Origin: Candidatus Poribacteria bacterium | GTDB lineage: Bacteria; Poribacteria; WGA-4E; WGA-3G | Direction of reading: 5' to 3' | DNA length: 64,000 nt | Assembly (NCBI GenBank): GCA_009839975.1 | Contig: VXOP01000167.1 | Location: 185 to 64,184 of the forward strand | Shown: piece by piece, positions 4,234 through 33,788 of the stretch | How the letters are laid out: every line of letters begins with the position of its first letter | Position numbering within the stretch: the first letter of the stretch is position 1 | Program-made: the position numbers and the translations under genes | Notes under the pieces: model-generated | Databases searched by the model: none | Told to the model about the DNA's origin: nothing | What the model saw: the letters and a program-made list of their open reading frames with translations, nothing else

Positions 4234-4242
4234 GAGGAACCG

Positions 4243-4926
4243 ATGCAAGTTACGAAATGTCATCTTACACTGCACGATTTTCTCTTCTATGCGACGCGTG
4301 AGATGGGACGACTTTACGAGACTGAAAAGGTTATACACAATTGGGCGTTGACTTATGCACTCGGTTTGGTTCAGAAACCGCATAGATCGTTTAACAGCGT
4401 TCCTACCTATCAGGATGACCTAACACCAATCAATGCGGCAGGTGTTTATGTTACACCTGCCAAACCTATCCACTATGATTATGTCATCAGTACATTCAAA
4501 CTGGCAGACAATCGGCATCGTCCGTTCTCAACTGTGAGCAACACACGAAAAAAAGAGTTAGGAATAAAGGTGACGAATAAACCTTCATTCGGTAAAGCAA
4601 AAGAACTTGCCCCAGGTAGTCTTTTTGAGTTTTTCATTGTCGGTGATTTACCCGACAAACTCCCAAAATGGATAAGGTTAGGTATATGGATGAGCAAAGC
4701 AGGGATTGAGATTAAAGATACGAAATTCTTAACACCAAAGAACGGGGCTTTTACGTGTTCACACCTTCTGAACCCAATAGATCTCGCAATTTCATCAGAG
4801 TTCTACGATCTCATTTCAATGCCGCCGGTGAGTTTACTACAGAACGCACGATTTAACGGTGAATATGTTGAATTCGGTAATGTTTGTTTGCCGACATCCA
4901 TGGCATACTTTGCCAGTGTAATATAA
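4243..4926 (+). CDS. csc1: Cas5d/Csc1 Cascade subunit
   Basis: 227 aa RAMP-like protein with a Gly-rich segment (PSFGKAKELAPGS) and a C-terminal RLGIWMSKAGIE strand. AGGAGGA RBS. It sits immediately after csc2. Confidence 0.45.
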   Translation: MQVTKCHLTLHDFLFYATREMGRLYETEKVIHNWALTYALGLVQKPHRSFNSVPTYQDDLTPINAAGVYVTPAKPIHYDYVISTFKLADNRHRPFSTVSNTRKKELGIKVTNKPSFGKAKELAPGSLFEFFIVGDLPDKLPKWIRLGIWMSKAGIEIKDTKFLTPKNGAFTCSHLLNPIDLAISSEFYDLISMPPVSLLQNARFNGEYVEFGNVCLPTSMAYFASVI

Positions 4927-13146: not shown

Positions 13147-13354
13147 CCGTTACACGTCTGATTTCTAAAAGTATCCTGTAATCAGAGGTTATATAATAGA
13201 AATAGCATAAAATGAACAATATTGCAAATGGAAGTGTCTAACTGTAGAGAATGTGGGAACTTTTTGGCACTCGTGGTGTATCAATAGGTAATTCTATTCC
13301 CTTATATTCACTGCATAAACTGCCTTCACACATCGAGAAAAATGGAGAAATAGT

Positions 13355-13990
13355 ATGCCAGAAACGATAAGGTCTTTGGATTTCATGCCTGCTGACGATT
13401 TAGAAAATATTGATGAACAGACGTATGTTGCCCGCTTCCAAAATGGTGATGTTGATGCGTTTAACACACTCGTACTGAAGTATCAAGACCGCATTGCAAA
13501 GTTGATTTACAAAAACATCAAGGACATTGAAACGACTAAAGACCTCTGCCAAGAAGTGTTCCTAAAAGCGTATAAGGCTTTACCAAAGTTTAAGGGTGAT
13601 TCTGCATTCTATAGTTGGCTCTATCGTATTGCTATCAACTGCTGCATCGACTATATGCGCCAACAGAATAGACGTCAAACTGTTCTGTTTGACGATTTAA
13701 CATCTGAACCAGACGACTTGTTGTTAATTAGTAAGCAACCATCTCCATCGGATCAGGTTGAGATGACAGAGTTAGGTGAAATCATTCAGGAGGCGGTGAA
13801 ACAGCTTCCACCGAAACAGCAGCGCGTCTTTAGGCTCCGATACGATCAGATGCTTCAGATGAAAGAAATTGCTGTCGTAACAAATCGCTCAGAGGGCACT
13901 GTGAAAACGCATCTGTATCATGCACATCGCAAACTTCGGGAGTTGCTACGACCCTATTTAGAAAATCGTCCGTTAGAGTGGAATGCGTGA
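13355..13990 (+). CDS. ECF-type RNA polymerase sigma-70 family factor
   Basis: Region 2 (DLCQEVFLKAYKAL...YSWLYRIAIN) and region 4 HTH (LQMKEIAVVTNRSEGTVKTHLYHAHRKLRE). Confidence 0.8.
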   Translation: MPETIRSLDFMPADDLENIDEQTYVARFQNGDVDAFNTLVLKYQDRIAKLIYKNIKDIETTKDLCQEVFLKAYKALPKFKGDSAFYSWLYRIAINCCIDYMRQQNRRQTVLFDDLTSEPDDLLLISKQPSPSDQVEMTELGEIIQEAVKQLPPKQQRVFRLRYDQMLQMKEIAVVTNRSEGTVKTHLYHAHRKLRELLRPYLENRPLEWNA

Positions 13991-14053
13991 GAATTGATGT
14001 TTATTATGTGTTAGATTTATATATTGTGATTGAAAATAGGTAGGTTTCTCCTA

Positions 14054-14092
14054 ATAGGCGCGAGTTCACACCGCGCCTATCGCTTTATATTT
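14054..14092 (+). terminator. Hairpin terminator after the sigma factor gene
   Basis: ataggcgcg-agttcacac-cgcgcctat is a 9-bp stem. It is followed by CGCTTTATATTT. Confidence 0.45.
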
Positions 14093-14341
14093 GAGTATAA
14101 AATTTCGCTTGCACTTAACTTCAATATAGCGTATTTTAAGGTGGAAGACACGATAAATTCTGTTTTAATCCTTTTATTTTACTTGCAACATTTTTGAAGA
14201 TTGTGTTAAACTAATGAAAATTGCCACAAATGAGTCAAAATGTTAGCAAAATCTCAATATTTAATGGAGATTACAAAATAGAAGAGAAATGTGGTAAACT
14301 GTAGCGTCAAGTCACCCTTTCTGTCTGAGGAGACGTCCACG

Positions 14342-16231
14342 ATGAACGATAAGGATAAGTATAGCAAAGTTGGTGGAAACCACTACGATAGTAAATCTGT
14401 CAAAGATAAGGATCAGTTGGAATTTGATGAAGATTCAGAAAATGAAGATGAGGAGACGAATGCCAACTATTCTCAGCGGCGAACAGACCGCAGTCGATAC
14501 GATAACAAATACATTGAAGACGATGATGGGTTTGAGTTTGATTTAGATGAAGAGGTCGATGAAAATGAAGCCAGTTCAGGTTATTCACTCCGCCTTATTC
14601 GTATGATCATCTCGGAAACACCTGTTGAGGATTTTAGACGTCGGTATCTGCTTGAATTGCGTCGTTCTATTATCAACGACGAAGGTGAATTTCGTCAAAG
14701 ATTACGTGCTATTGAACAGGAAGCAATTCGCATTCATAAAGAGATGGAAGAGCAGATAGAGGCACTAACTGCTCCTGCCAACCGTATCGGAACGCTCCTT
14801 GACACCCCCAAAGACGATACTGCGCGCGTCACCGTTGGTGGTGCTGAATACTATGCTAATGTGGACCCACAGTTGGAATCGGGTAACCTCAAAAAAGGAG
14901 TGAGTGTGCTTCTCAATGAAGCCTTTGTTGTTGTTGGCGAACTCGGCTATAATGAATCGGGTCCGATTGCTAAGATTTCTGATATTCTTCCGGATGGCAG
15001 GCTTCGTGTCGGGTCTGAACCGAGTCTGCAATCTGTCATTATAGAACGCGCGACGGATCTCGTGGATGTTAAGTTGAAGTCTGGTGATGAAGTTCGACTT
15101 GATCCGAGTTTGCGGGTGGCGGTTGAATATATCGCATCCAAAGAAACGAAAGATTATGCACTTGAAGCGGTTCCAGAAATCCCATGGTCAAAAGTGGGAG
15201 GACTTGATGAAACCATTCAACGAATTAAAGATACAATTGAGCAACCGATCTTACATCCAGAACTATTTAAGAAGTTTCAGTACACTGTCCCGAAAGGTTT
15301 CCTGCTCCACGGTCCTCCTGGTTGTGGTAAAACACTCATCGGAAAAGCGACAGCGTATAACCTAACTGAACGTCTCAAAACAGAATCAGGTGAAGAAATA
15401 GAAGGGACATTCCTGCACATTAAAGGTCCCGAAATTCTCAACATGTGGCTGGGTGAATCGGAACGGAAAGTCAGAGAAATTTTCTCAACAGCACGAGAAA
15501 AACGGGATGAAGGTAAACTCGCTTTTGTGTTCATTGATGAAGCAGAGTCTATTTTGGGAACACGGCGTGCAATGCGATCACACAGTATCTCTAATACACT
15601 CGTTCCCATGTTCTGTGCAGAAATGGATGGGATTGAACCGCTGCAAGAGGTTGTCATTATACTCGCTACGAACCGACCGGACTTAATTGATCCTGCTATT
15701 CTTCGTCCGGGACGTATAGACAGAAAAATTAAAGTAACGCGTCCGAATAAAGACGCTGCGAAAGATATTTTCGGTATCTATTTGACAACTGACCTTCCAA
15801 TTGAAACGGAAGAAGGTGAAACGGATGACCAAGGAATCGTTGATCAACTGATAACTGAAGTCGTGGATGAGATGTTCCGTGAATCCTCTGAAAACCGGTT
15901 CCTTGAAGTCGCACTCCGCAGCGGCAGGCGCGATATTCTCTATCGGGGGCATCTCTGCAGCGGTGCCATTATAGAATCAATCGTTCAGAGAGCAAAAGAA
16001 TCTGCAATGAAGCGTGCAATAGCAGCCCCTGATACAGATACTGGCATCACTTTAGACGACCTTATGGATTCACTTAACGCAGAATATAGCGAAAACGACA
16101 TCTTCCCGCCAACAGAGGCTACTGAAGATTGGCTCAAACTCCTTGATTATGACCCCGTGAATGTTGTCAAGGTCACACCTATTCAGGCAGAAAAAAGAGA
16201 GACACGCAAAGTATCAAGTCCAGTGATTTAG
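14342..16231 (+). CDS. mpa: Proteasome-associated AAA+ ATPase (Mpa/ARC)
   Basis: Walker A GPPGCGKTLIGKA. Walker B FVFIDEAES. An N-terminal coiled-coil region. The gene context is mpa-dop-pup-prcBA-pafA. The start is taken at the ATG at 14342 with a GAGGAG RBS. The ORF track uses 14291. Confidence 0.8.
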   Translation: MNDKDKYSKVGGNHYDSKSVKDKDQLEFDEDSENEDEETNANYSQRRTDRSRYDNKYIEDDDGFEFDLDEEVDENEASSGYSLRLIRMIISETPVEDFRRRYLLELRRSIINDEGEFRQRLRAIEQEAIRIHKEMEEQIEALTAPANRIGTLLDTPKDDTARVTVGGAEYYANVDPQLESGNLKKGVSVLLNEAFVVVGELGYNESGPIAKISDILPDGRLRVGSEPSLQSVIIERATDLVDVKLKSGDEVRLDPSLRVAVEYIASKETKDYALEAVPEIPWSKVGGLDETIQRIKDTIEQPILHPELFKKFQYTVPKGFLLHGPPGCGKTLIGKATAYNLTERLKTESGEEIEGTFLHIKGPEILNMWLGESERKVREIFSTAREKRDEGKLAFVFIDEAESILGTRRAMRSHSISNTLVPMFCAEMDGIEPLQEVVIILATNRPDLIDPAILRPGRIDRKIKVTRPNKDAAKDIFGIYLTTDLPIETEEGETDDQGIVDQLITEVVDEMFRESSENRFLEVALRSGRRDILYRGHLCSGAIIESIVQRAKESAMKRAIAAPDTDTGITLDDLMDSLNAEYSENDIFPPTEATEDWLKLLDYDPVNVVKVTPIQAEKRETRKVSSPVI

Positions 16232-16291
16232 TGCTACACCTTTACCTTGAAATAAAATCACATATTGTCCGATAAAAACAGAAAGTTACAA

Positions 16292-17812
16292 ATGATGCAT
16301 AGACTTTTTGGAATTGAAACCGAATACGGAATCACACTTGAAAACGCTGAACAGATTGATACTGTCAAGGAATCCATTGAGTTAATAAAGTGTTACCAAC
16401 GCGAGCCATTTTTACCGAAATGGGATTACAATGGTGAAGACCCTTTCAGAGATGAACGCGGTTTTCGGGCAAAACATTTAAATAACCATCCTGATGAAGT
16501 GGAGGAGGAGAAGAAGGATAAGGAAAGGTTTGCTAATCAACCTGATCGTTCCTTTCGTGAAATAAAGAGTGACCGCATCCTGATAAATGGTGCGAGACTT
16601 TACAACGACCACGCACATCCAGAGTATTCAACACCTGAATGTCAAAGTTTGTTTGACCTTGTAGCACACGATAAAGCCGGTGAACGGATACTGCAGGAAT
16701 GTGCTGAAAGACGGAGCCAAGAACTTGGTGAACGGGTTATCCTATATAAAAATAACACCGATTTTTATGGTCATAGTTACGGATGTCATGACAACTATCT
16801 AATGGACCGTGATGTGCCATTTGATTACCTCAAAATGAGCATTCTCCCGTTTTTTATTACACGGCAAATATTTGCGGGAGCGGGTAAGATAGGTATTGAG
16901 ACTGAAGCGGGACTCGCTACGCCGGGACATTTCCAACTCACACAACGTTCAGATTTTTTTCACGTAGAGGCGAGTGTGGATACAATGCACAAACGTCCTA
17001 TCGTGAACACAAGAGACGAACCGCATGCGGATCCGGCAAAATATCGTAGACTTCACGGAATCGTTGGCGATGCCAACATGTCCGAATATGCTACCGCGTT
17101 GAAGGTCGGGACAACTGCACTTGTTATTGAACTGATTGAACAACGGCTTATTCCAGAGACATGTGCCATCGCTAATCCGATTGATACCATAAAACTGATT
17201 TCGCATGACCAGACGTATCGTTGGATGTTACAGAAGGTGGATGGTAAAATGATCTCCGCGATTGATCATCAGCGCGAGTTTCTTGAAATTGCACAAAAAC
17301 ATCTTGCGAGTCAGAACAGTGAGACGGATTGGGTGTTAACACAGTGGGAACAGACGCTTGATGCACTTGAAAATGACCCGATGAACCTTACAGATAGGAT
17401 TGACTGGGTCGCAAAAAAATGGTTGTTGGAAACCTTTGTTGAATCTGAAGAAATTGAATGGGATGACCCCTGGCTCCAGAGTATTGATTTAGAATACCAT
17501 AACATCAATGTTGAGGAAGGTTTATTCTACGGATTACCGATGCAAAGAGTTGTGACGGATGAACAGATTCAGGCAGCTATGCATACACCCCCCGCAGATA
17601 CGCGGGCTTATTTCCGTGGTAAATCACTCAACAAGTTTGAAGATGCAGTCAAAACTGTTCAATGGGATAGTATCTCCTTTGACATTAAAGGGAGGACAGT
17701 GACTGTTAATATGAACTCACTTGCGAATCCGGAAATTGCACAGAAATATAATGAAGCACTTGACTTATCCCCTAATCCGCAAACCCTTGTTGAAAAGCTC
17801 GGTTTACCTTAG
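16292..17812 (+). CDS. dop: Pup deamidase/depupylase Dop
   Basis: N-terminal HRLFGIETEYG signature of the Dop/PafA carboxylate-amine ligase family. It is longer than the second paralog and has an acidic insert (EVEEEKKDKERF), consistent with the Dop loop. It lies immediately upstream of pup. Confidence 0.65.
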   Translation: MMHRLFGIETEYGITLENAEQIDTVKESIELIKCYQREPFLPKWDYNGEDPFRDERGFRAKHLNNHPDEVEEEKKDKERFANQPDRSFREIKSDRILINGARLYNDHAHPEYSTPECQSLFDLVAHDKAGERILQECAERRSQELGERVILYKNNTDFYGHSYGCHDNYLMDRDVPFDYLKMSILPFFITRQIFAGAGKIGIETEAGLATPGHFQLTQRSDFFHVEASVDTMHKRPIVNTRDEPHADPAKYRRLHGIVGDANMSEYATALKVGTTALVIELIEQRLIPETCAIANPIDTIKLISHDQTYRWMLQKVDGKMISAIDHQREFLEIAQKHLASQNSETDWVLTQWEQTLDALENDPMNLTDRIDWVAKKWLLETFVESEEIEWDDPWLQSIDLEYHNINVEEGLFYGLPMQRVVTDEQIQAAMHTPPADTRAYFRGKSLNKFEDAVKTVQWDSISFDIKGRTVTVNMNSLANPEIAQKYNEALDLSPNPQTLVEKLGLP

Positions 17813-17865
17813 CATAATGTAAACCCACAATCGCATCTAAAAGCACTTTTAAGGAGAATAAATTC

Positions 17866-18063
17866 ATGAAAGACAAAATTGTCTATTTTCCCGAACGCAA
17901 ACAGAGACCGGTAAAGCCGATAGAACCCGGTGACGGTGGCGATGATAGTAACGCGCCGAAACGTCCCGATGTCAACAGACCCGATACAAACGAACTTCTA
18001 AAACGCATGAGACGGGTTGACAAAGATCAATCGCGCCGATACCGACAAAGGACGGGAGAGTGA
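17866..18063 (+). CDS. pup: Prokaryotic ubiquitin-like protein Pup (divergent, C-terminal Gly-Glu)
   Basis: 65 aa. Basic/acidic disordered N-terminus. The C-terminus YRQRTGE resembles the canonical YVQKGG[QE]. It sits between dop and prcB and overlaps the prcB start (ATGA). AAGGAG RBS. Confidence 0.5.
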   Translation: MKDKIVYFPERKQRPVKPIEPGDGGDDSNAPKRPDVNRPDTNELLKRMRRVDKDQSRRYRQRTGE

Positions 18064-18935
18064 TGAACCATAAAGGCGACTTTCTCAGCCTTTTAAAACA
18101 TGCCGATACCTTGCAAGTTGATGGTGAACAGACTCAAGGTATTTCTGAAGTGAATGTCCCAGAATTATTACCAAGTATAAAAAAACCTATACGCGATGCT
18201 ATGGTGCTGCCCACGCAAGACAGACAAACGCATAGCACGACTTTAGCGTTAGCTGAGGCAACGACTGTTGTTGCAATGCGTTACAAGGATGGTATTATCA
18301 TTGCGGGGGATCGGCGTGCAACCGCTGGCACTTCTGTCGTTCACGACCGCGCTGAGAAAGTCATTCCTATCGACTCACACTCTGTTCTGGCAATCTCTGG
18401 TGCCCCTGCAATGGCTTTTGAGATTGCGCGTGTTCTAAAACACTCATTCCAGTATTTTCGTCGCAGCCAACTCCAAGAACTCAGTGTTGAAGGAAAACTG
18501 AGAACACTTTCACGGCTTATCCTTGATAACCTGCCAATGGCACTGCAGGGGATCGGCGCGGTGATTCCTATCTTCGCGTTGTATGCACCGCAAACTGACG
18601 AAACGGTAAACGGTGGCAAAATCTATTTCTATGACGCACTCGGTGCACACTTTGAAAACGTCGATTTCGCTACAACCGGTTCCGGTTCAGTTTGGATACG
18701 CGGTGTGCTACGTTATCTTGACAGATGGGGAGAGACACGACTTGAAGATATGGATGAACAGCAGGCAACCATCACAATTCTAAGATTGCTTGATACAGCC
18801 AGTGAGTATGATGCCGCAACAAGCGGATACAACGCAAAAGCTGAGATATTTCCTACTGTCAAAACGATTACACGACACGGCGTTGAAACACTCACCGACA
18901 AATTTCTTAATGAATGTTACGCGGAGGCTACATAA
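18060..18935 (+). CDS. prcB: 20S proteasome beta subunit PrcB with propeptide
   Basis: A propeptide followed by TTVVAMRYKDGIIIAGDRRAT (active-site Thr1 context). Ntn-hydrolase fold motifs. Confidence 0.75.
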   Translation: MMNHKGDFLSLLKHADTLQVDGEQTQGISEVNVPELLPSIKKPIRDAMVLPTQDRQTHSTTLALAEATTVVAMRYKDGIIIAGDRRATAGTSVVHDRAEKVIPIDSHSVLAISGAPAMAFEIARVLKHSFQYFRRSQLQELSVEGKLRTLSRLILDNLPMALQGIGAVIPIFALYAPQTDETVNGGKIYFYDALGAHFENVDFATTGSGSVWIRGVLRYLDRWGETRLEDMDEQQATITILRLLDTASEYDAATSGYNAKAEIFPTVKTITRHGVETLTDKFLNECYAEAT

Positions 18936-19702
18936 TGCGCGATATGCCGTATCGCTGGATTGAAGCAATTCAGGACAGGGCCGATTACATTGAAGACCAA
19001 CTTAAACCCGGAAGTCCCGTCGTAGGACTTCCTTACGCAGATGGCAGCCTACTTCTTACCGTCAGTAAAGGTGCTCAGAAAATATTTGAAGTTCATGACC
19101 GTATTGCACTTTCCGCCATCGGACATCCTGCCGATATTGAACGTCTCCGTATGCTTGTTACCGATACCGCAAGCGTTCAGGCATTTCAAAGTGCCACTGA
19201 AGATGTGAACCTACACCGGCTCACACATTATGTTTTAGCACATACCTTTAAACAAGCATTTGAATCCATTGTCGGTGAAGCGTACATCATAAAAATGTTG
19301 CTCGTGGAAATTGGCAATGGTGCCCCAGAAACACAATTTACCCATATAAACTACGACGGTAACGTGAAAGTCCAGCACGAATCTGGTGTCATCGGCGGCA
19401 CCGAAGAGATTGAAACCGCTATGCAAAACTATCTCACGGAGGCAAAAAATGATACACCACCTGACCTTGACTCTGCACTGCAGTTAGCATTGAAAACCTG
19501 GGCAGTGGGTAGAAAATTAAGCCAAAGTTTTGCGGATGCAGAAGATAGCAACGAAGTATCAGAAGACGAGATAGATGAGGTTATAAACACTGAATTAGAG
19601 GAAGGCGAAATTGAAGCCGGGATTTTAGATAATTCCTTATCAGGAGACACAAAATTCCGTCTATTGAATAAAGATGAGATAACGCGCACAATCAACAGAT
19701 GA
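18935..19702 (+). CDS. prcA: 20S proteasome alpha subunit PrcA
   Basis: Alpha-type proteasome subunit pattern (PYADGSLLLTVS...). Acidic C-terminal tail. GGAGG RBS 6 nt before the ATG at 18935 (TAATG overlap). The ORF track start is 18914. Confidence 0.7.
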   Translation: MRDMPYRWIEAIQDRADYIEDQLKPGSPVVGLPYADGSLLLTVSKGAQKIFEVHDRIALSAIGHPADIERLRMLVTDTASVQAFQSATEDVNLHRLTHYVLAHTFKQAFESIVGEAYIIKMLLVEIGNGAPETQFTHINYDGNVKVQHESGVIGGTEEIETAMQNYLTEAKNDTPPDLDSALQLALKTWAVGRKLSQSFADAEDSNEVSEDEIDEVINTELEEGEIEAGILDNSLSGDTKFRLLNKDEITRTINR

Positions 19703-19732
19703 TATTAAAAACAGTCATTAAGGAAAGATTCC

Positions 19733-21193
19733 GTGACATACAGAATAATCGGCATTGAAACCGAATTGGGATGCATGGTTCAGCCTCAGACAATGCAGGC
19801 ACAACGTTTGAAAGCCTCCCCTGAGGGTGTTGCCGCGAATATCAGAGACTATGTCTTCAAACATCTTGAACTCGGTATTCCCGATCTGCACTATCGCGAC
19901 TGGGGAGAACCACCCGGTAACGGCGGCTTCCTCTTCAACGGCGGCAGACTCTACATCGATATGGGACATCTTGAATATGCTACACCGGAATGTGCCAATC
20001 TTTTTGACGCAATCGCTTACGACAAGGCAATTGAGCATGTCATCATGGCGATCCTAAAAGAGAACAGACTTGAGTCACACGTCGCCTTCTACAAAAACAA
20101 CATAGACCACTACACAGGGGCAACGTTCGGCTGCCACGAAAACTATCAGGCACGGCGTGATGTGCCGTTTTATAGAATCGTAATCCCAACACTCCTCCCA
20201 TTTTTCGTTACCCGACAAATATATGCTGGTGCAGGTCGAGTCGGTGCTTATGATGACATCATGGAATTCGGAGATGGACAATACAGTCAAGATGACTTTA
20301 TCGGGTACCAGATATCACAACGCGCGGATCACATCGTCACTGAAATCTATGAATGGATTCAGTTCAGTCGCGCAATAATCAATACCCGGGACGAACCGCT
20401 CAGCGATTACACAAAATATCGTAGACTCCATCTCCTTGTCGGCGACACGAACATGTCGGAGTACGCATCAGCACTCAAAATCGGTACAACCGTACTCATT
20501 CTTGATGCTATTGAGAGACATTACGAACGATACGGAGAAAAACTGCCAATCCCAAACCTTGAACTTGTTGACCCGATCGCCGCTATCAGATACATCTCAC
20601 GGGACACCACACTGACATGGGATGTTGACCTACAGAACGGTCAAACTGTCACTGCCATTGATATTCAACGCAAATACCTAAACTTTGTTCAAGACATGAT
20701 GACACGTCCGAATGAGACGACCCAGTGGATACTCACTGAATGGGAAAATGTCCTTGATGACTTAGAAACAGACTGGACACGTCTTACCACCCGACTCGAC
20801 TGGGCTGCAAAGAAATGGTTTCTTGATGCATTAGTGGAGGAAGAAGGTTTGGATTGGGATGACCAGTGGCTCAAGAGCCTTGACTTAGAATACCATAACA
20901 TTGACCCTGAAACTGGGATATTCTATGCACTCCAATCCGAAGGGTGTATGCGTCGCGTGATTACCGACCACCAGATCAGTCATGCCATCACTAACCCACC
21001 CATCAACACGCGCGCAAGGGTCCGCGGGTATCTCATGCGAAACCTGAAGAAGCATAAGATGCAGTGTATAGTGGATTGGCATCACATCTATGCTGGACAA
21101 ACCGAATGTTATGAGATGAAAGAACCCCTTGACACCAACCTACCAAATGCTCGTAGATGGCTAAATCTCCTCAAACTGCGGCAACGGATGTAG
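19733..21193 (+). CDS. pafA: Pup--protein ligase PafA
   Basis: N-terminal YRIIGIETELG. A paralog of the gene at 16292 without the acidic insert. It sits downstream of prcA, as in the actinobacterial arrangement. GTG start. Confidence 0.65.
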   Translation: MTYRIIGIETELGCMVQPQTMQAQRLKASPEGVAANIRDYVFKHLELGIPDLHYRDWGEPPGNGGFLFNGGRLYIDMGHLEYATPECANLFDAIAYDKAIEHVIMAILKENRLESHVAFYKNNIDHYTGATFGCHENYQARRDVPFYRIVIPTLLPFFVTRQIYAGAGRVGAYDDIMEFGDGQYSQDDFIGYQISQRADHIVTEIYEWIQFSRAIINTRDEPLSDYTKYRRLHLLVGDTNMSEYASALKIGTTVLILDAIERHYERYGEKLPIPNLELVDPIAAIRYISRDTTLTWDVDLQNGQTVTAIDIQRKYLNFVQDMMTRPNETTQWILTEWENVLDDLETDWTRLTTRLDWAAKKWFLDALVEEEGLDWDDQWLKSLDLEYHNIDPETGIFYALQSEGCMRRVITDHQISHAITNPPINTRARVRGYLMRNLKKHKMQCIVDWHHIYAGQTECYEMKEPLDTNLPNARRWLNLLKLRQRM

Positions 21194-21268
21194 AACATAA
21201 TCCTGACACAAATACAAAAAATGTGATATAATAATAAGAAATTGATCTGTGATGCAGGAGGAAATTAT

Positions 21269-22486
21269 ATGAGTAGCAGTCCATCTTATCGTATATTAGC
21301 CGAGAAATTAGAAAAGCAGGGAATTCAAGTTGAGATAGTCAAGGAACACCTAAAACAGCAGCATATAGAAACACCCTCATGGGGTTACGGAAATTCCGGC
21401 ACACGATTCGGGGTGTTTGAACAACCCGGTGCTGCGAGGAACGCAGCAGAACGTCTGGAAGATGCAGCAACCGTCCACAGGTTTACAGGTGTTTCACCCA
21501 CTGTCGCACTTCACATCCCATGGGATAAAACCGACGACTGGGGTGCATTGAAACAGTATGCAGCAGATGTCGGTATTGGAATCGGGGCAATTAACCCTAA
21601 CGTCTTTCAAGACCAAGAATATAAACTCGGTAGCGTCTGCAACCCGTATGCAGATATACGTCGTCTTGCAATTGACCACATGTTAGAATGTGTTGACATC
21701 ATGCAGAAGACAGGTTCAGATTTACTGAGTCTCTGGTTTGCTGATGGCACAAACTTCCCCGGACAAGCAAACTTCCGAAAACGTAAGCAGTGGATGACAG
21801 ATGCACTCAGCGAAGTGTATGACGTCCTACCTGATGATACCCGTATGTTGATTGAATACAAGTTCTTTGAACCCGCATTTTACCACACCGATTTAGCCGA
21901 TTGGGGTACCGCTTACCTCATGGCGACTAAACTGGGACCGAAAGCACAAGTACTTGTAGACCTCGGTCATCATCCGCAAGGGACGAATATCGAGTTTATC
22001 GTCGCATACCTTATAGATGAAGGAAAACTTGGTGGTTTTCACTTCAATTGCCGAAAATACGCGGACGATGACCTGACGGTAGGTTCTATCAATCCGCAGG
22101 AACTTTTCCTCATATATAACGAACTCGTCGCAGCTGAACTTGATCCAGAAACAGAAACTGACATCGCTTATATGATCGACCAGAGTCATAACCTAAAACC
22201 GAAAGTGGAAGCAAGCATACAGTCCGTCTGCAACCTACAGAAAGCTTATGCAAAAGCACTATTGGTGGACCGAGACGCATTAGCAGCAGCACAAGATTCT
22301 GCTGACGTTATTGAAGCGGAGAGCATACTTCAGCATGCTTATGAAACCGATGTGAACCCACTCCTTGAACAGGTGCGTTTAGAGATGGGACGCGATCCAC
22401 ATCCATTGACAGCATACCGAAAGAGTGGCTATTATGAGAAGATTAGTAAAGCGCGTATCGGTGGCGAAAGCCAAGGATGGGCATGA
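21269..22486 (+). CDS. L-rhamnose isomerase (RhaA) family sugar isomerase
   Basis: The motif pattern resembles E. coli RhaA ([20 protein letters not shown]...W.ADG, VDLGHH). AGGAGG RBS before the ATG at 21269. The ORF track TTG start is at 21242. Confidence 0.6.
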
Positions 22487-23157
22487 AAACAGAACACCTC
22501 AAAAAGATTGCTGCTGAAAAAGCGACAGAAGAGATACAAAACGGAATGGTTGTCGGATTGGGAACCGGTTCAACTGTTTACTACGCACTCTTAAAACTTG
22601 GCGGAATGGTGCGAAACGGTCTTGATATCATCGGAATTCCTACCTCCGAAGCTACAGAAAAGATCGCAACTGAACAAGGTGTCAGACTTTCAACACTTGC
22701 AGAACATGCCACAATAGAATTAACGATAGACGGTGCTGATGAAGTAGACCCACGTCTCAATTTAATCAAAGGTGGTGGTGCAGCTTTGGTTAGAGAGAAA
22801 ATCATTGCAAACGCATCAAAACGCCTCCTCATTGTTGTTGATGAAAGCAAGGTGTCTCAAGTCATCGGAACAACTTATGCACTACCCGTGGAAATAATAA
22901 AGTTCGGGTGGGAAGCGACACAACGCATGGTCAATCAGATTTGCGGGAAGTCTGACTTGCGAGGGGGAATACAAAAACCGTTGATTACAGATAACGGAAA
23001 CTATATCTTAGACTGCAAATTCAATGGAATTCCTGAACCTGAAAAGATGGAGTTATTACTGAACAACATTCCCGGCGTGGTCGAGAACGGTATTTTCGCA
23101 AAACGCGCAGACAAGGTGATAATCGGCACAACAGATGGCATAAAATACATGGCGTAG
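22477..23157 (+). CDS. rpiA: Ribose-5-phosphate isomerase A
   Basis: [19 protein letters not shown] and [12 protein letters not shown] are signature RpiA motifs. 226 aa. Confidence 0.85.
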
Positions 23158-23162
23158 GAATA

Positions 23163-23972
23163 ATGGTCAAGAAACTATACTCCTTATCTATATTACTTAC
23201 TGCCTGCCTTATATTTGCTGTTCCCGCTACGGGTGAAATCTTTACAGAAAGTGGATTAGTAGATATCCCATCAGGCAAAGTGTTAGAACACGGGATATTT
23301 GGTGTAGGTGTATATGCACCCTTTCAAAATTCAACGCATTTCAAACGGGATCCTGTTGCTTTCCGTGTCAACTTCGGCATGTTTGATAGGATTGAAATCA
23401 GTGGTTCACACATACTACCACAGGACAATGACGCTTCACGATCCTTCTTGGGACACCTAAAAGCACAACTCCTCGTAGAATCAGGAAAAATACCTGATAT
23501 TGCAATCGGTATTGACAATCTCGGCGATAATGTTATTCAAGAGTGGGATACCTACCATGCGAATTCCGCATATCTTGTTATCAGTAAGACTTTCAATCTT
23601 CCACGCATTCATCTGATTTCGGGACACATTGGACTTGGTAATAACCGTTTTGCAATAGATGATAATCCTATCGGCATGTTTGTGGGTTTAAGCACAGAAC
23701 TTCGTCCCGCTTTTGCAAGAGACGATATTAAACTCAGTCTGGAATTTGACGGTGCCGGTATCAATGCAGGTATACAGCATACTGCAAACAGTGGTTTACG
23801 CATCTCCTTGGGTGTTGAGACACTAAACAGGCCGGAAGATATCCGTTACTTCGCAGCAATTTCGTGGTCAAATGCTAAGTTGATGGAACAGATAGCAGGT
23901 GCAAACCGCCTCGCGCAACAAGCAGCAAAACTTGCAAGTCAAGCGAAAAAAGAGAAAACATCAGAAAGATAG
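23163..23972 (+). CDS. Hypothetical secreted protein
   Basis: N-terminal signal peptide (LSILLTACLIFAVPATGE). It may be a beta-barrel protein. No known motif recognised. Confidence 0.45.
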   Translation: MVKKLYSLSILLTACLIFAVPATGEIFTESGLVDIPSGKVLEHGIFGVGVYAPFQNSTHFKRDPVAFRVNFGMFDRIEISGSHILPQDNDASRSFLGHLKAQLLVESGKIPDIAIGIDNLGDNVIQEWDTYHANSAYLVISKTFNLPRIHLISGHIGLGNNRFAIDDNPIGMFVGLSTELRPAFARDDIKLSLEFDGAGINAGIQHTANSGLRISLGVETLNRPEDIRYFAAISWSNAKLMEQIAGANRLAQQAAKLASQAKKEKTSER

Positions 23973-25212: not shown

Positions 25213-26469
25213 TCATTCAATCAAACTCAATTGTTCAGCATTCCTTGTTAGGACGATCTCTCCCACCGTAAACCCATTTTTTAAAAGAGTACACACATCC
25301 TCAAAATCTGAAGCAGGTTTAACTAAGGTTCCAATTCTGTCAGGTATAAGCATAAGTACTTCCCTACCGTCAATGCCGGGTTCAGTAAGAAGAGTATCAC
25401 TTTGTGTACTGACTAACACTTGGCACCGTCTGTTTCTTCCCATAATGGAAATCATAGGTGCAAGTTGGGAGACAATCCCAAGGTTCAACGAAAGTTCTGG
25501 TTCCTCTAACAGAATAACGGAATCGTTTTCAAGAAGGGACCAAAAAAGTCCCACAAGTCGTAGCATACCGTCAGAAAAATGATCTTCGCGCAGCCCATTC
25601 TTATTTGAACGCCAATGTGTGGAATATGCTTCTAAATGCGGTTTCCCTGTTGTTTTATCGCGAACAAACTCCAGTTTCTCAAAATGTGGAATTGCAATTT
25701 TGAGTGCATGTTCTATTTTTTTCAGACGAGAACGTCGGGTACTGGGATGAACACTGGCAATTCTGTCAAGAAACATCTGTCCAAACGGATCCTCTTCAAC
25801 TACCTTGCCTTGAATCGCGTCAGCATATTGTATAAACTGCGGAACAAGATGGAGATAGGTGACATTTCTTAAGAAACTGCTAATTTCTCTAAACTTAGCA
25901 TTGGTAGCACTCTGTTCAAGAGCAGTTTGAGTGAGACGGGTGGGGTCGTCTTTATCAAAATTATCAGGTCTAAGAAGAAGAAGCTCATCGTCTTTCCATA
26001 CACGTTCATGTGTTATATAGGTATGTTGATGTGCTTGAGGACATTTGAGGAATCCTAACGTATACCGCCATGTTGCTGGTGTATCTGCAGCTTCTGCTAT
26101 GTGAAGTTCAATACTCACTTCAGCATCGTGTGGTGCAGCTAAACATCTAATTTTGGAGACACCACCTCGAACCTTCACTGCTTTCTGGAACCCTCCACCG
26201 TCGACTTTTACAATATCACGCAGAAAACGAAATATGTCAAGTAGATTAGATTTACCAGAAGCATTCGGACCAATGATAAACTGCCGTTCCCTAAGAGGAA
26301 CATCTATTTGACGAAAATTCCTCCAGTTTTTAGCAATAAGTCGATTGATGATCACTATTTTAATCCTTTTGACAGCAAACAGATTATAAAAACATTCTCC
26401 AATACTATAATTATACCACCATTCAGATATTAATTCCAAATCAAACATATCCAAATCGCACCTTGACAT
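25213..26469 (-). CDS. AAA_21/ABC-type ATPase (OLD/RecF-like, abortive-infection-type)
   Basis: Walker A IIGPNASGKSNLLD. Signature-like SDGMLRL. Walker B ILLEEPELSLN. H-loop VSTQSD. The true start is probably internal to the ORF-track start. Confidence 0.65.
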   Translation of the reverse strand: MSRCDLDMFDLELISEWWYNYSIGECFYNLFAVKRIKIVIINRLIAKNWRNFRQIDVPLRERQFIIGPNASGKSNLLDIFRFLRDIVKVDGGGFQKAVKVRGGVSKIRCLAAPHDAEVSIELHIAEAADTPATWRYTLGFLKCPQAHQHTYITHERVWKDDELLLLRPDNFDKDDPTRLTQTALEQSATNAKFREISSFLRNVTYLHLVPQFIQYADAIQGKVVEEDPFGQMFLDRIASVHPSTRRSRLKKIEHALKIAIPHFEKLEFVRDKTTGKPHLEAYSTHWRSNKNGLREDHFSDGMLRLVGLFWSLLENDSVILLEEPELSLNLGIVSQLAPMISIMGRNRRCQVLVSTQSDTLLTEPGIDGREVLMLIPDRIGTLVKPASDFEDVCTLLKNGFTVGEIVLTRNAEQLSLIE

Positions 26470-33744: not shown

Positions 33745-33774
33745 GGTAGGTGCGATTAGGATATCGCACCTACC
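33745..33774 (+). promoter_or_regulatory. 12-bp perfect inverted repeat hairpin immediately upstream of RBS
   Basis: ggtaggtgcgat-taggat-atcgcacctacc. No U-tract follows. It directly precedes the AGGAGAGG RBS of the gene at 33789. Confidence 0.35.
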
Positions 33775-33788
33775 AGGAGAGGCAACTG

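What the first reader, a model, noticed from the sequence alone, without database searches (positions are those of the whole stretch)
14342..21193. Complete Pup-proteasome system (mpa-dop-pup-prcB-prcA-pafA) in a didermic, non-actinobacterial-looking genome, with a divergent Pup ending in Gly-Glu
All six components are present in the canonical actinobacterial order. The host also carries LPS heptosyltransferase, Omp85-type and OmpA-type outer-membrane proteins and WD40/TPR giants. Lineages outside Actinobacteria with a full Pup-proteasome system are few. The 65-aa Pup is highly divergent and very basic in the Mpa-binding half. It ends YRQRTGE, a ligase-ready Glu, yet a Dop homologue with a Dop-loop insert is retained, presumably as a depupylase. 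Dop versus PafA was assigned only from gene order and the insert.
Basis: partly seen in the sequence, partly recalled or inferred. Interest (0 to 1): 0.55.

Follow-up and report, generated by a model that had tools for sequence, protein, structure and literature searches.

The report
UBact-proteasome gene cluster in Poribacteria
This is a complete, intact copy of the already described UBact-proteasome protein-tagging system (the Gram-negative counterpart of actinobacterial Pup) in a sponge-symbiont Poribacteria genome, and its small tag protein is already annotated as UBact in GenBank, so it is real but not new.

Summary
The six genes are at the stated coordinates, in the stated order, on the + strand. 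All checked catalytic motifs are intact.

The 65-aa "divergent Pup" is a textbook member of the described UBact family. It scores 68.8 bits on PF20513 and 77.2 bits on NF033388, against a cut-off of 35. It gives no hit to the Pup model PF05639 even at E<=10. The identical protein is already deposited as [quoted passage not shown] (MYB64286.1 and others).

The gene order recurs in 62 poribacterial species genomes and in 8 Verrucomicrobia. The last 25 residues of the tag are invariant in all 66 poribacterial copies.

ORF2 is clearly Dop-like. It is equidistant from actinobacterial Dop and PafA by sequence, by curated HMMs and by predicted fold. Its ligase role is inferred.

Other differences from the Pup system:
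- The tag is basic where Pup is acidic.
- The ATPase ends in SPVI, not GQYL.
- Every enzyme scores below its actinobacterial equivalog cut-off.

Verdict: already known, low interest. The one open point is the origin and activity of ORF6.

The parts
14342..16231 (+). Mpa/ARC-like proteasomal AAA+ ATPase. It is 629 aa from the first ATG; the ORF opens at GTG 14291. An acidic N-terminal extension of about 105 aa precedes the coiled coil, two OB domains and the AAA module. The C-terminus is ...SSPVI.
   Evidence: Pfam hits are AAA 110.7 bits, Prot_ATP_ID_OB_N 61 bits and Prot_ATP_ID_OB_C 42.9 bits. TIGR03689 pup_AAA scores 451 bits, below the 504.75 cut-off. The best solved-structure matches are M. 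tuberculosis Mpa 5kwa and 7px9, with residues 107-626 aligned to Mpa 45-582. Walker A (GPPGCGKT), Walker B (FIDEAE) and the pore loop (MWLGE) are visible in that alignment. The C-terminal motif SPVI / SRVI / SAVV is conserved in relatives. The 629-aa form is in NCBI as 'AAA family ATPase', MYB64284.1.
16292..17812 (+). Dop-like enzyme, the predicted UBact deconjugase (and deamidase where the tag ends in Gln). It is 505-506 aa; the mechanical ORF opens at TTG 16265.
   Evidence: PF03136 scores 551 bits. TIGR03688 Dop scores 478 bits against PafA 383 bits; the Dop cut-off is 492.3. PDB matches are Dop 4b0r at 418.6 bits and PafA 4b0t at 264.5 bits. The Dop-loop is present with its conserved motif: DPFRDERGF here, NPLRDARGF in Acidothermus. 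At the Hecht-2020 discriminating positions it is Dop-like at 13 of 22, including D-H-A and S-T-P around the catalytic Asp. Its clade has 100% bootstrap support.
17866..18063 (+). UBact, the 65-aa tag. The sequence is MKDKIVYFPERKQRPVKPIEPGDGGDDSNAPKRPDVNRPDTNELLKRMRRVDKDQSRRYRQRTGE. Net charge is +6 and the C-terminal residue is Glu.
   Evidence: PF20513 UBact scores 68.8 bits (cut-off 27.8). NF033388 ubiq_like_UBact scores 77.2 bits (cut-off 35). There is no Pup PF05639 hit at E<=10. The last 25 residues are invariant in 66 poribacterial loci. The exact sequence is deposited as 'ubiquitin-like protein UBact' under MXV76762.1, MYB64286.1, MYF55954.1 and MYI93532.1. An AAGGAG site lies 8 nt before the ATG.
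18060..18935 (+). 20S proteasome beta subunit (PrcB-like) with a 67-residue propeptide. The start (GTG 18060 or ATG 18063) overlaps the UBact stop codon.
   Evidence: PF00227 scores 83.8 bits. TIGR03690 20S_bact_beta scores 158 bits, the best model but below the 191.9 cut-off. The best PDB match is the Rhodococcus beta subunit 2h6j/1q5q. Thr68 aligns with mature Thr1. Asp17 (GDRR), Lys33 (EKV) and GSGS are read from the alignment. The start-stop overlap is shown.
18935..19702 (+). 20S proteasome alpha subunit (PrcA-like), highly divergent. It is 255 aa from the ATG in TAATG, which is preceded by GGAGG. The mechanical ORF opens at 18914.
   Evidence: TIGR03691 20S_bact_alpha is the best model at 68 bits, below the 139.05 cut-off. 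PF00227 scores 22.5 bits. The only significant solved-structure matches are the Rhodococcus and Mycobacterium PrcA chains 1q5q_A (E 3.2e-10) and 3h6f_A. The gene is conserved at this position in 75 related loci. Both the 255-aa and 262-aa forms exist in public data. NCBI calls it 'hypothetical protein'.
19733..21193 (+). Second Pup-ligase-family enzyme (486 aa, GTG start), the predicted UBact-protein ligase. It belongs to a distinct clade that is neither canonical PafA nor Dop.
   Evidence: PF03136 scores 461.7 bits. TIGR03688 Dop scores 368 bits and TIGR03686 PafA 359 bits, both far below cut-off. PDB matches are Dop 9cku at 256 bits and PafA 4b0t at 244 bits. The AF2 model (pLDDT 84.2, pTM 0.88) matches Dop 7oxy at TM 0.79 and PafA 4bjr at TM 0.80. 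The GIETE, catalytic Asp (LYIDMGH), GCHENY, NTRDEP and RRLH motifs are present. It lacks most of the Dop-loop. It is PafA-like at F54, I63 (for Leu), G66, A72, T73, H188, S200 and D439. Its clade has 100% bootstrap support, but the deep placement is unresolved.

Best explanation
The locus is a complete, functional-looking UBact-proteasome system. This is the Gram-negative counterpart of the actinobacterial Pup-proteasome system, here in a Candidatus Poribacteria genome.

Proposed mechanism:
1. UBact is made ligase-ready, because it ends in Glu.
2. The downstream Pup-ligase-family enzyme (19733-21193) uses ATP to phosphorylate the gamma-carboxylate of that Glu. It then joins it by an isopeptide bond to a lysine of a target protein.
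3. The Mpa-like AAA+ hexamer (14342-16231) captures the tag on its N-terminal coiled coil. It threads the tag's disordered N-terminus through its pore, unfolds the target and feeds it into the 20S core.
4. The 20S core is built from the PrcA-like and PrcB-like subunits, with a Thr1 active site exposed after removal of a 67-residue propeptide.
5. The Dop-like enzyme (16292-17812) removes UBact from targets. In lineages whose UBact ends in Gln it would also deamidate the tag first.

What is shown here: the family memberships, the intact motifs, the operon-like arrangement and the conservation. What is inferred: the division of labour between the two paralogues, conjugation itself, and delivery to the proteasome. 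These are inferred by homology with Pup/PafA/Dop/Mpa.
For: - Tag identity: the UBact HMMs are passed with margin and the exact protein is deposited as UBact.
- Enzymes and core: all five partners hit the bacterial Pup-proteasome equivalog models as their best model. Their best solved-structure relatives are Mpa, Dop, PafA/Dop, PrcB and PrcA.
- Catalytic residues seen in the alignments: beta Thr1, Asp17, Lys33 and GSGS; Walker A, Walker B and pore loop of the ATPase; GhExE, the catalytic Asp, GCHENY, NTRDEP and RRLH in both ligase-family proteins.
- Selection: the six-gene order is kept in 62 complete poribacterial and 8 verrucomicrobial loci, while the flanking genes are not conserved. The last 25 residues of the tag are invariant in 66 poribacterial genomes.
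- Expression: overlapping stop and start codons couple ubact to prcB and prcB to prcA.
- Role assignment: ORF2 carries the Dop-loop and 13 of 22 Dop signature residues. ORF6 lacks most of the loop and has the PafA-type Asp439, His188, Phe54 and Gly66, plus the 2-residue insertion that PafA has before Asp439. The signature positions come from Hecht et al. 2020, PMC7947786.
- Gene positions match those of actinobacterial dop (upstream of the tag) and pafA (downstream of prcA). This is established knowledge of the M. tuberculosis locus.
- Both Glu- and Gln-ending tags occur in Verrucomicrobia, 5 each, as with Pup. This fits a Dop-type deamidase activity.
- Charge complementarity: UBact is net +6. 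The UBact-linked enzymes are about 10 charge units more negative than their actinobacterial counterparts.
Against: - No experiment on any UBact system was found in the searchable literature. Conjugation, deconjugation and degradation are all inferred.
- Every enzyme scores below its NCBIfam equivalog cut-off.
- ORF6 cannot be assigned to PafA by score, fold or NJ phylogeny.
- The ORF6 alpha-loop lacks the Thr-Thr pair that is conserved and functionally important in both PafA and Dop.
- The ATPase lacks the GQYL-type C-terminus that Mpa uses for 20S docking, and the alpha subunit is very divergent. ATPase-20S coupling may therefore differ.
- The promoter and terminator scans were no better than shuffled sequence.
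Confidence: 0.85

Rival explanations
1. The small protein is simply a Pup orthologue, in the same family as actinobacterial Pup. On this reading the locus is a Pup-proteasome system, and 'UBact' is only a different name.
For: - The gene sits in the same slot, between dop and prcB.
- The size is similar: 65 aa here, 64 aa for Pup.
- It has a disordered-looking N-terminal half and a C-terminal Gly-Glu/Gln.
- hhalign places it colinearly on M. tuberculosis Pup: T..LL ... R.Y.Q..G at the C-terminus, 30% identity over 33 columns.
- The partner enzymes are clear homologues of the Pup enzymes.
Against: - There is no PF05639 hit even at E<=10, whereas the Pup control scores 79.7 bits on Pup and nothing on UBact.
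- The hhalign match is not significant: E 0.27, probability 0.2%.
- The penultimate motif is T-G-E, not G-G-E/Q.
- The Mpa-binding half is basic, not acidic, and 4 residues shorter.
- Pfam and NCBIfam curate the two as separate families.
Confidence: 0.4
2. The two Pup-ligase-family genes of UBact loci arose by a duplication independent of the actinobacterial Dop/PafA duplication. ORF6 would then be a convergently evolved ligase derived from a Dop-like ancestor, not a PafA orthologue.
For: - The NJ bootstrap gives 45% for ((ORF2 clade, ORF6 clade),(ActDop, ActPafA)).
- ORF2 and ORF6 clades are 44.1% identical, as close as ORF2 is to actinobacterial Dop (44.6%). ORF6 is only 35.9% identical to actinobacterial PafA.
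- ORF6 keeps the first part of the Dop-loop region (HYRDWGEPP), lacks the PafA-specific Val insertion, has Dop-type Pro at position 15, and has a private alpha-loop.
Against: - The other topology gets 55%.
- The gene positions (Dop-like upstream of the tag, ligase-like downstream of prcA) match the actinobacterial order.
- ORF6 shares several PafA-specific states with PafA, including a 2-residue insertion and Asp439.
- Hecht et al. 2020 recovered Dop and PafA as two well-supported clusters that include Nitrospirae sequences, using ML and an outgroup.
- Distance methods are sensitive to the fast-evolving PafA branch.
Confidence: 0.25
3. Roles are not split as assumed. ORF2 does both ligation and deconjugation, or the roles are swapped, and ORF6 has another function such as an inactive scaffold.
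For: - The ORF6 alpha-loop lacks the Thr-Thr pair needed for full PafA activity.
- Some Planctomycetes manage with a single homologue.
- The ORF6 alpha-loop could not be modelled with confidence.
Against: - ORF6 retains every nucleotide-binding and catalytic motif shared by the family.
- Its clade is strongly conserved, with 53 full-length sequences and many invariant active-site columns.
- The Dop-loop and the Dop signature around the catalytic Asp favour hydrolase activity in ORF2, as shown experimentally for Dop by Hecht et al. 2020.
Confidence: 0.1
4. Tagging with UBact is regulatory or protective, not a degradation signal. The proteasome genes would act independently of the tag.
For: - The ATPase lacks the Mpa-type GQYL docking tail.
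- The alpha subunit is highly divergent.
- From my own knowledge, some actinobacteria use pupylation without a proteasome.
Against: - ubact is translationally coupled to prcB and prcA.
- All six genes travel together across two phyla while their flanks change.
- The ATPase keeps the coiled coil, double OB and AAA architecture of Mpa.
Confidence: 0.1

Closest known systems
UBact-proteasome system of Gram-negative bacteria (Lehmann, Udasin, Livneh, Ciechanover 2017, Biochem Biophys Res Commun 483:946-950; Pfam PF20513; NCBIfam NF033388)
   Same: - The tag passes both curated UBact models.
- It ends R-T-G-E.
- It lies between a Dop-like gene and prcB, in a cluster with Mpa-like, PrcB, PrcA and a second Pup-ligase-family gene.
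- The host is a diderm.
- The identical protein is already named UBact in GenBank.
   Different: Nothing of substance. This is a typical member.

The details added here are descriptive: the invariant C-terminal 25 residues across Poribacteria, the SPVI tail of the ATPase, the 67-residue beta propeptide, and the third-clade status of the downstream ligase-family enzyme.

I could not read the original paper. Its citation was confirmed from the reference list of PMC5751360. That it already listed Poribacteria is my recollection, not a tool result.
Actinobacterial Pup-proteasome system (Mpa/ARC, Dop, Pup, PrcB, PrcA, PafA)
   Same: - Same gene order.
- Same enzyme folds and catalytic motifs.
- The tag has a C-terminal Gly-Glu/Gln that would be activated by a glutamine-synthetase-like ligase.
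- The Dop-like enzyme has a Dop-loop.
- The ATPase has a coiled coil, double OB and AAA module.
- The 20S core uses a Thr1 beta subunit.
   Different: - The tag fails the Pup HMM, is basic not acidic, and ends TGE, not GGQ/GGE.
- All five enzymes score below the actinobacterial equivalog cut-offs.
- The ligase candidate is not in the PafA clade and has a private alpha-loop.
- The ATPase ends SPVI, not GQYL, and has an acidic N-terminal extension.
- The enzymes are about 10 charge units more acidic.
- The host is a diderm of another phylum.
Single-copy Dop/PafA homologues of Planctomycetes (used as outgroup by Hecht et al. 2020, PMC7947786)
   Same: Like ORF6, they are reported to be about equally distant from Dop and PafA (29-31% identity to both). 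They are also reported to align only partially with the Dop-loop.
   Different: They occur as a single copy, whereas ORF6 is paired with a clear Dop-like paralogue. I did not have those sequences identified by taxon, so any relationship to the ORF6 clade is untested.

Membership tests
UBact (PF20513 / NF033388) | Score above the curated cut-off of the family HMMs | tested here: met
   PF20513 scores 68.8 bits against 27.8. NF033388 scores 77.2 bits against 35, covering 54 of 54 model positions.
UBact (PF20513 / NF033388) | C-terminus R-[T/S]-G-[E/Q] on a protein of about 50-70 aa | tested here: met
   The 65-aa protein ends YRQRTGE. All 66 poribacterial homologues end RTGE. The 10 verrucomicrobial ones end RTGE or RTGQ.
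UBact (PF20513 / NF033388) | Encoded in a cluster with Mpa-, Dop-, PafA-like and proteasome alpha/beta genes in a Gram-negative host | tested here: met
   The gene order is shown. The host is Candidatus Poribacteria. Outer-membrane and LPS genes are in the window.
UBact (PF20513 / NF033388) | Covalent conjugation of the C-terminal Glu to substrate lysines | not testable with these tools
   This needs biochemistry or proteomics. No experimental paper was found.
Pup (PF05639) | Match to the Pup family HMM | tested here: not met
   There is no hit at E<=10. The M. tuberculosis Pup control scores 79.7 bits.
Pup (PF05639) | C-terminal G-G-Q/E and an acidic helical Mpa-binding region | tested here: not met
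   The protein ends T-G-E. Residues 40-65 carry 9 Lys/Arg against 5 Asp/Glu (sequence; alignment).
Pup (PF05639) | Detectable homology by profile-profile comparison | tested here: inconclusive
   The hhalign alignment is colinear and anchored at the C-terminus, but E is 0.27 with shallow profiles.
Dop, depupylase/deamidase (TIGR03688), for ORF 16292-17812 | Equivalog HMM cut-off | tested here: not met
   The score is 478.2 bits against a cut-off of 492.3. This is narrowly below, but well above the PafA model at 382.7 bits.
Dop, depupylase/deamidase (TIGR03688), for ORF 16292-17812 | Dop-loop insertion of about 40 aa with its conserved motif | tested here: met
   The insertion is present and about 15 residues longer. 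DPFRDERGF aligns with NPLRDARGF of Acidothermus Dop.
Dop, depupylase/deamidase (TIGR03688), for ORF 16292-17812 | Dop-specific residues of Hecht et al. 2020 (D-H-A and S-[TA]-P around the catalytic Asp; alpha-loop F.EVE.GLE..LK) | tested here: met
   It is Dop-like at 13 of 22 positions, including all those flanking the catalytic Asp. The alpha-loop is partly divergent (FFHVEASVDTMHK). Position 46 is Gln, which is neither Ser nor Asp.
PafA, Pup-protein ligase (TIGR03686), for ORF 19733-21193 | Equivalog HMM cut-off, and a better score than the Dop model | tested here: not met
   The PafA model scores 359.3 bits against a cut-off of 551.3. The Dop model scores slightly higher, 368 bits.
PafA, Pup-protein ligase (TIGR03686), for ORF 19733-21193 | Absence of the Dop-loop | tested here: met
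   The roughly 40-residue core of the loop is absent. Only the first segment (HYRDWGEPP) is kept.
PafA, Pup-protein ligase (TIGR03686), for ORF 19733-21193 | PafA-specific residues (L-D-V-G-S with the Val insertion; A-T-A; alpha-loop H.WEG.SSA..RS; Asp439) | tested here: inconclusive
   It is PafA-like at F54, I63, G66, A72, T73, H188, S200 and D439. It lacks the Val65 insertion and has Pro, not Ala74. Seven of the nine alpha-loop positions are private (HIVTEIYEWIQFS), and the conserved Thr-Thr is replaced by Trp-Ile.
PafA, Pup-protein ligase (TIGR03686), for ORF 19733-21193 | Phylogenetic placement inside or as sister to the PafA clade | tested here: inconclusive
   The four clades each have 100% support, but the deep quartet splits 55:45 by NJ bootstrap. 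The predicted fold is equidistant from Dop and PafA.
PafA, Pup-protein ligase (TIGR03686), for ORF 19733-21193 | Alpha-loop forms a helix (PafA) as opposed to a loop (Dop) | tested here: inconclusive
   The AF2 model is good overall (pLDDT 84.2), but pLDDT is below 50 at residues 201-206 and 212-220.
Mpa/ARC proteasomal ATPase (TIGR03689) | Equivalog HMM cut-off | tested here: not met
   The score is 450.9 bits against 504.75. It is still the best model by far.
Mpa/ARC proteasomal ATPase (TIGR03689) | Coiled coil, tandem OB domains and a single AAA module | tested here: met
   Both OB Pfam domains and AAA are hit. Residues 107-626 align with Mpa 45-582, including the coiled coil.
Mpa/ARC proteasomal ATPase (TIGR03689) | C-terminal GQYL (penultimate Tyr) 20S-docking motif | tested here: not met
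   The protein ends SSPVI. Relatives end SPVI, SRVI or SAVV. The GQYL motif of Mpa is from established knowledge.
Bacterial 20S proteasome beta subunit (TIGR03690) | Equivalog cut-off, and the Ntn-hydrolase catalytic residues Thr1, Asp17, Lys33 and GSGS | tested here: met
   The HMM score of 158 bits is below the 191.9 cut-off. All the catalytic residues align with the Rhodococcus and Mycobacterium PrcB structures, and Thr68 aligns with mature residue 1.
Bacterial 20S proteasome alpha subunit (TIGR03691) | Equivalog cut-off / recognisable PrcA homology | tested here: inconclusive
   The score is 68 bits against a cut-off of 139.05. It is the best model over 215 of 229 positions. The only significant PDB matches are PrcA chains, at E 3e-10 to 4e-8.

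The most novel reading that the evidence does not exclude
The downstream Pup-ligase-family enzyme of UBact loci (ORF 19733-21193 and its clade) may be a third lineage of the family and not a PafA orthologue. It could have been recruited as a ligase independently from a Dop-like ancestor. Alternatively it could preserve the pre-PafA intermediate state. It keeps the start of the Dop-loop, has no Val insertion, and has a private alpha-loop that lacks the Thr-Thr pair. If so, ligase/deligase pairs for disordered protein tags either evolved twice, or this clade is a living intermediate on the hydrolase-to-ligase path that Hecht et al. reconstructed by mutagenesis.
Probability: 0.25. Interest if true: 0.5.

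Novelty: already known. Interest (0 to 1): 0.2.

Why it matters
As a discovery it does not matter much. UBact and its accompanying Mpa/Dop/PafA/proteasome homologues in Gram-negative phyla were described in 2017. Curated HMMs exist, and this very protein is labelled UBact in GenBank.

Three points have residual value.

1. No experimental demonstration of UBact conjugation turned up in the searchable literature. The poribacterial system is extremely conserved and ligase-ready because its tag ends in Glu. That makes it a clean candidate for reconstitution in E. coli.
2. The ligase candidate is not a canonical PafA. It could inform how ligase and hydrolase activities diverged in this family.
3. 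The public annotation of this locus is incomplete. The beta subunit is named 'alpha', the alpha subunit is 'hypothetical protein' and the ATPase is a generic 'AAA family ATPase'.

Tried and rejected
- **Pup membership.** I ran PF05639 at E<=10 with a Pup positive control. The window ORF gave no hit, so I rejected filing it as Pup.
- **UBact-Pup homology by hhalign.** The alignment is colinear but not significant, E 0.27. I left this open.
- **Dop/PafA phylogeny.** I built an NJ tree with Kimura distances from 142 sequences and 438 columns, with 100 bootstraps. The clades are solid but the deep branching is unresolved, 55:45. No ML program or identified outgroup was available.
- **AlphaFold2 of ORF6, to read helix versus loop in the alpha-loop.** The model is good overall, but pLDDT is below 50 exactly there.
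- **AlphaFold2 of ORF2.** A 20-sequence alignment gave pLDDT 49.7, which is unusable.
- **Foldseek of the ORF6 model against the PDB.** Dop and PafA tie.
- **Promoter and terminator scan of 13300-23300.** Counts equal the shuffled expectation: 19 against 18.1 and 9 against 9.3. I make no claim about transcription signals.
- **Search for a second Pup-like ORF in the window (ORFs of >=30 aa ending in Gly-Glu or Gly-Gln).** It found only UBact plus four unrelated ORFs, one of them lying out of frame inside dop. The rest of the genome could not be searched.
- **Charge complementarity.** The UBact-linked enzymes are about 10 units more acidic. I could not map the changed columns onto the Pup-binding groove, so this is only consistent with the idea, not a demonstration.
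- **Original UBact paper.** It is not held in the library. The claim that it already listed Poribacteria rests on my memory.
- **Flanking synteny.** The ECF sigma factor, TIM-barrel, rpiA and other flanking genes are shared only with the closest relatives. I therefore rejected including them in the system.

Full report

Yes. One search lists six co-directional ORFs that fill 14291/14342-21193 on the + strand.

Pfam and NCBIfam identify them as follows:
- An AAA ATPase with both proteasomal-ATPase OB domains. Its best NCBIfam model is TIGR03689 pup_AAA, at 451 bits.
- A Pup_ligase-family protein: PF03136 at 551 bits, with the Dop model at 478 bits and the PafA model at 383 bits.
- A 65-aa protein.
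- A proteasome beta subunit (TIGR03690, 158 bits).
- A divergent proteasome alpha subunit (TIGR03691, 68 bits).
- A second Pup_ligase-family protein: PF03136 at 462 bits, with Dop at 368 bits and PafA at 359 bits.

The genes are packed like an operon. The spacers are 60, 53, 30 and 48 bp. The ubact stop overlaps the prcB start (GTGATG). The prcB stop overlaps the likely prcA start (TAATG, preceded by GGAGG). An AAGGAG site lies 8 nt before the ubact ATG.

The window also carries a GT9 heptosyltransferase, an Omp85-domain protein, an OmpA-family protein and WD40 proteins.

**2. Who is the host?**

A scan of one genome per species with the Dop-like protein returned 67 loci titled Candidatus or uncultured Poribacteria, or untitled MAGs that group with them, at 71-99% identity. 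The best was L002 at 99%. About a dozen Verrucomicrobia loci followed at 53-57%. The host is a sponge-symbiont poribacterium, not an actinobacterium.

An exact-sequence look-up shows all six proteins are already in public databases. They come from poribacterial MAGs and carry consecutive accessions MYB64284-MYB64289 on a 64,313-bp contig.

**3. What is the small ORF?**

It is UBact, not a divergent Pup.
- It passes both curated UBact models with margin: PF20513 at 68.8 bits against 27.8, and NF033388 at 77.2 bits against 35, end to end.
- It gives no hit to the Pup model PF05639 even at E<=10. In the same run, M. tuberculosis Pup scores 79.7 bits on Pup and nothing on UBact.
- The identical 65-aa protein is deposited four times as [quoted passage not shown].

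The family was named by Lehmann et al. 2017 (BBRC 483:946). I confirmed the citation in the reference list of PMC5751360. The paper itself is not held. My recollection that it already listed Poribacteria is not a tool result.

Within its own family the protein is anything but divergent. The last 25 residues (ELLKRMRRVDKDQSRRYRQRTGE) are identical in all 66 poribacterial loci that reach the gene. Verrucomicrobia differ at only a few positions and end in RTGE or RTGQ, five each.

A profile-profile comparison with Pup gives a colinear, C-terminally anchored alignment (T..LL ... R.Y.Q..G). It is statistically insignificant, E 0.27. Common ancestry with Pup is therefore plausible from position and pattern, but not demonstrated here.

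UBact is net +6, and its C-terminal half has 9 basic against 5 acidic residues. Pup's equivalent segment is strongly acidic.

**4. The enzymes**

*ATPase.*
- Residues 107-626 align with Mpa residues 45-582. This covers the coiled coil, both OB domains, Walker A and B and an aromatic pore loop.
- An acidic, low-complexity N-terminal extension of about 105 residues precedes it.
- The C-terminus is SPVI. Relatives have SPVI, SRVI or SAVV. None has the GQYL motif with penultimate Tyr that Mpa uses to dock on the 20S core, which is established knowledge.

*Beta subunit.* Thr68 aligns with mature Thr1 of the Rhodococcus and Mycobacterium PrcB structures. Asp17, Lys33 and GSGS are in place. This implies a 67-residue propeptide.

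*Alpha subunit.* It is very divergent. Its only significant solved relatives are PrcA chains.

*ORF2 (16292-17812).* It is Dop-like by every measure.
- It scores 419 bits to Acidothermus Dop against 264 bits to Corynebacterium PafA.
- It has a Dop-loop with the conserved P[LF]RD[AE]RGF motif.
- It has Dop states at 13 of the 22 discriminating positions defined experimentally by Hecht et al. 2020 (PMC7947786). These include D-H-A and S-T-P around the catalytic Asp.

*ORF6 (19733-21193).* This is the interesting case.
- It has all the shared catalytic motifs and lacks the core of the Dop-loop.
- It is equidistant from Dop and PafA by phmmer (256 against 244 bits). The same holds for the NCBIfam models (368 against 359 bits, both far below cut-off). 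It also holds for predicted fold: TM 0.79 to Dop 7oxy and 0.80 to PafA 4bjr.
- At the Hecht positions it is PafA-like at F54, I63, G66, A72, T73, H188, S200 and D439. It also shares a 2-residue insertion before D439.
- It lacks the PafA-specific Val insertion, has Dop-type Pro at position 15, and keeps the first segment of the Dop-loop region.
- Its alpha-loop is private (HIVTEIYEWIQFS). The Thr-Thr pair, which is conserved and functionally important in both PafA and Dop, is replaced by Trp-Ile.

**5. Phylogeny**

I combined 142 family members:
- actinobacterial Dop sequences with source names;
- diverse PafA-side representatives;
- the ORF6-like hits;
- both paralogues from poribacterial and verrucomicrobial loci.

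NJ with 100 bootstraps gives 100% support to each of four clades: actinobacterial Dop, the ORF2 clade, the ORF6 clade and actinobacterial PafA. It does not resolve how they join. The split is 55% for (Dop+ORF2 | ORF6+PafA) and 45% for (ORF2+ORF6 | Dop+PafA).

Mean identities tell the same story: ORF2-Dop 44.6%, ORF2-ORF6 44.1% and ORF6-PafA 35.9%.

Conserved gene positions and shared PafA-type states make me favour ORF6 as an early-branching member of the PafA side, at roughly 65-70%. An independent origin is not excluded, at roughly 25%.

**6. How it most likely works**

By homology with the Pup system:
1. UBact is ligase-ready because it ends in Glu.
2. ORF6 phosphorylates that Glu with ATP and couples it to a target lysine.
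3. The Mpa-like hexamer binds the tag on its coiled coil and threads the tagged protein into the PrcAB core.
4. ORF2 removes the tag. In Gln-ending lineages it would first deamidate it.

What is shown: the family memberships, the intact motifs, the translational coupling of the tag to the proteasome genes, and strong purifying selection on the whole cassette. The cassette is conserved across two phyla while its flanks are not.

What is inferred: conjugation itself, which paralogue does what, and ATPase-20S coupling. The last is uncertain given the non-GQYL tail and the divergent alpha subunit.

One exploratory observation fits a basic tag. The UBact-linked enzymes are about 10 charge units more negative than their actinobacterial counterparts.

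**7. Comparison with the known, and verdict**

The locus is a typical member of the UBact-proteasome system. It works like the Pup-proteasome system, but it fails several Pup-system membership tests: the Pup HMM, the GGQ/E end, the acidic helix, the equivalog cut-offs, the GQYL tail and the PafA signature.

The components, order, host type, Glu end and Dop call are right. The labels "divergent Pup", "PafA" and "few lineages" are not.

No second tag gene was found in the window, and the rest of the genome could not be searched.

Novelty: already known. Interest is low. Two things remain of value. UBact biochemistry appears untested in the searchable literature, and ORF6-type enzymes may illuminate how ligase and hydrolase diverged.

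**8. Dead ends**

- AF2 could not resolve the ORF6 alpha-loop and failed for ORF2.
- The promoter and terminator scans were at background.
- hhalign was insignificant.
- The NJ tree was unresolved at depth.
- The original UBact paper was not available.

Noticed in passing
window 270-4926 (+): A Csc2 CRISPR protein (PF18320, 375 bits) lies at 3220-4233. It is flanked by a 989-aa and a 227-aa ORF that have no Pfam hit. The arrangement looks like a type I-D CRISPR-Cas effector module (cas10d-csc2-csc1). I did not look for a CRISPR array.
   Followed up: no
L001 11447-13271; L013 11534-14751 (between prcA and the ORF6 homologue); also L005, L006, L008, L015, L018, L024, L027: In several poribacterial genomes the 30-bp prcA-ORF6 spacer of the window is replaced by a 0.9-3.4 kb insertion. 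In L001 and L013 it encodes a D12-class N6-adenine methyltransferase and an EcoRI-family endonuclease. L013 also has an IS605 OrfB/TnpB gene. The proteasome operon is thus an insertion site for a mobile restriction-modification cassette.
   Followed up: partly
window 18060-19702: The public annotation of this locus is partly wrong. The beta subunit (Thr1, TIGR03690 as best model) is deposited as 'proteasome subunit alpha' with a truncated 244-aa start (MYB64287.1). The real alpha subunit is 'hypothetical protein' (MYB64288.1). The Mpa-like ATPase is a generic 'AAA family ATPase'.
   Followed up: yes
L069-L078 (Verrucomicrobia), UBact genes: Closely related verrucomicrobial UBact proteins end either in Glu (5) or Gln (5). 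This is the same polymorphism known for Pup. All 66 poribacterial copies end in Glu.
   Followed up: partly
window 14342-14660: The Mpa-like ATPase has an Asp/Glu-rich, low-complexity N-terminal extension of about 105 residues ahead of the coiled coil. tblastn matches in relatives start at varying points, so the extension appears variable in length. Whether it helps capture the basic tag is speculation.
   Followed up: no
I did not analyse it.
   Followed up: no
window 36736-39930 (+): A 1064-aa protein with a very strong match to the uncharacterised family UPF0182 (PF03699, 801 bits), directly downstream of the Omp85/PD40/peptidase-MA protein at 33750-36686.
   Followed up: no
window 25213-26469 (-): An AAA_21 (AbiEii-like) ATPase, PF13304 at 111.7 bits. 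It may be part of a defence or toxin-antitoxin module, and it lies between the OmpA gene and the heptosyltransferase gene.
   Followed up: no
L068 and L080 (Chthoniobacterales): These loci hold a Dop-like gene at 56-57% identity. tblastn found no Mpa, UBact or proteasome genes in the DNA held for them, which includes 8 kb upstream and 6.8 kb downstream in L068. The cluster is therefore not universal around Dop-like genes in Verrucomicrobia.
   Followed up: no
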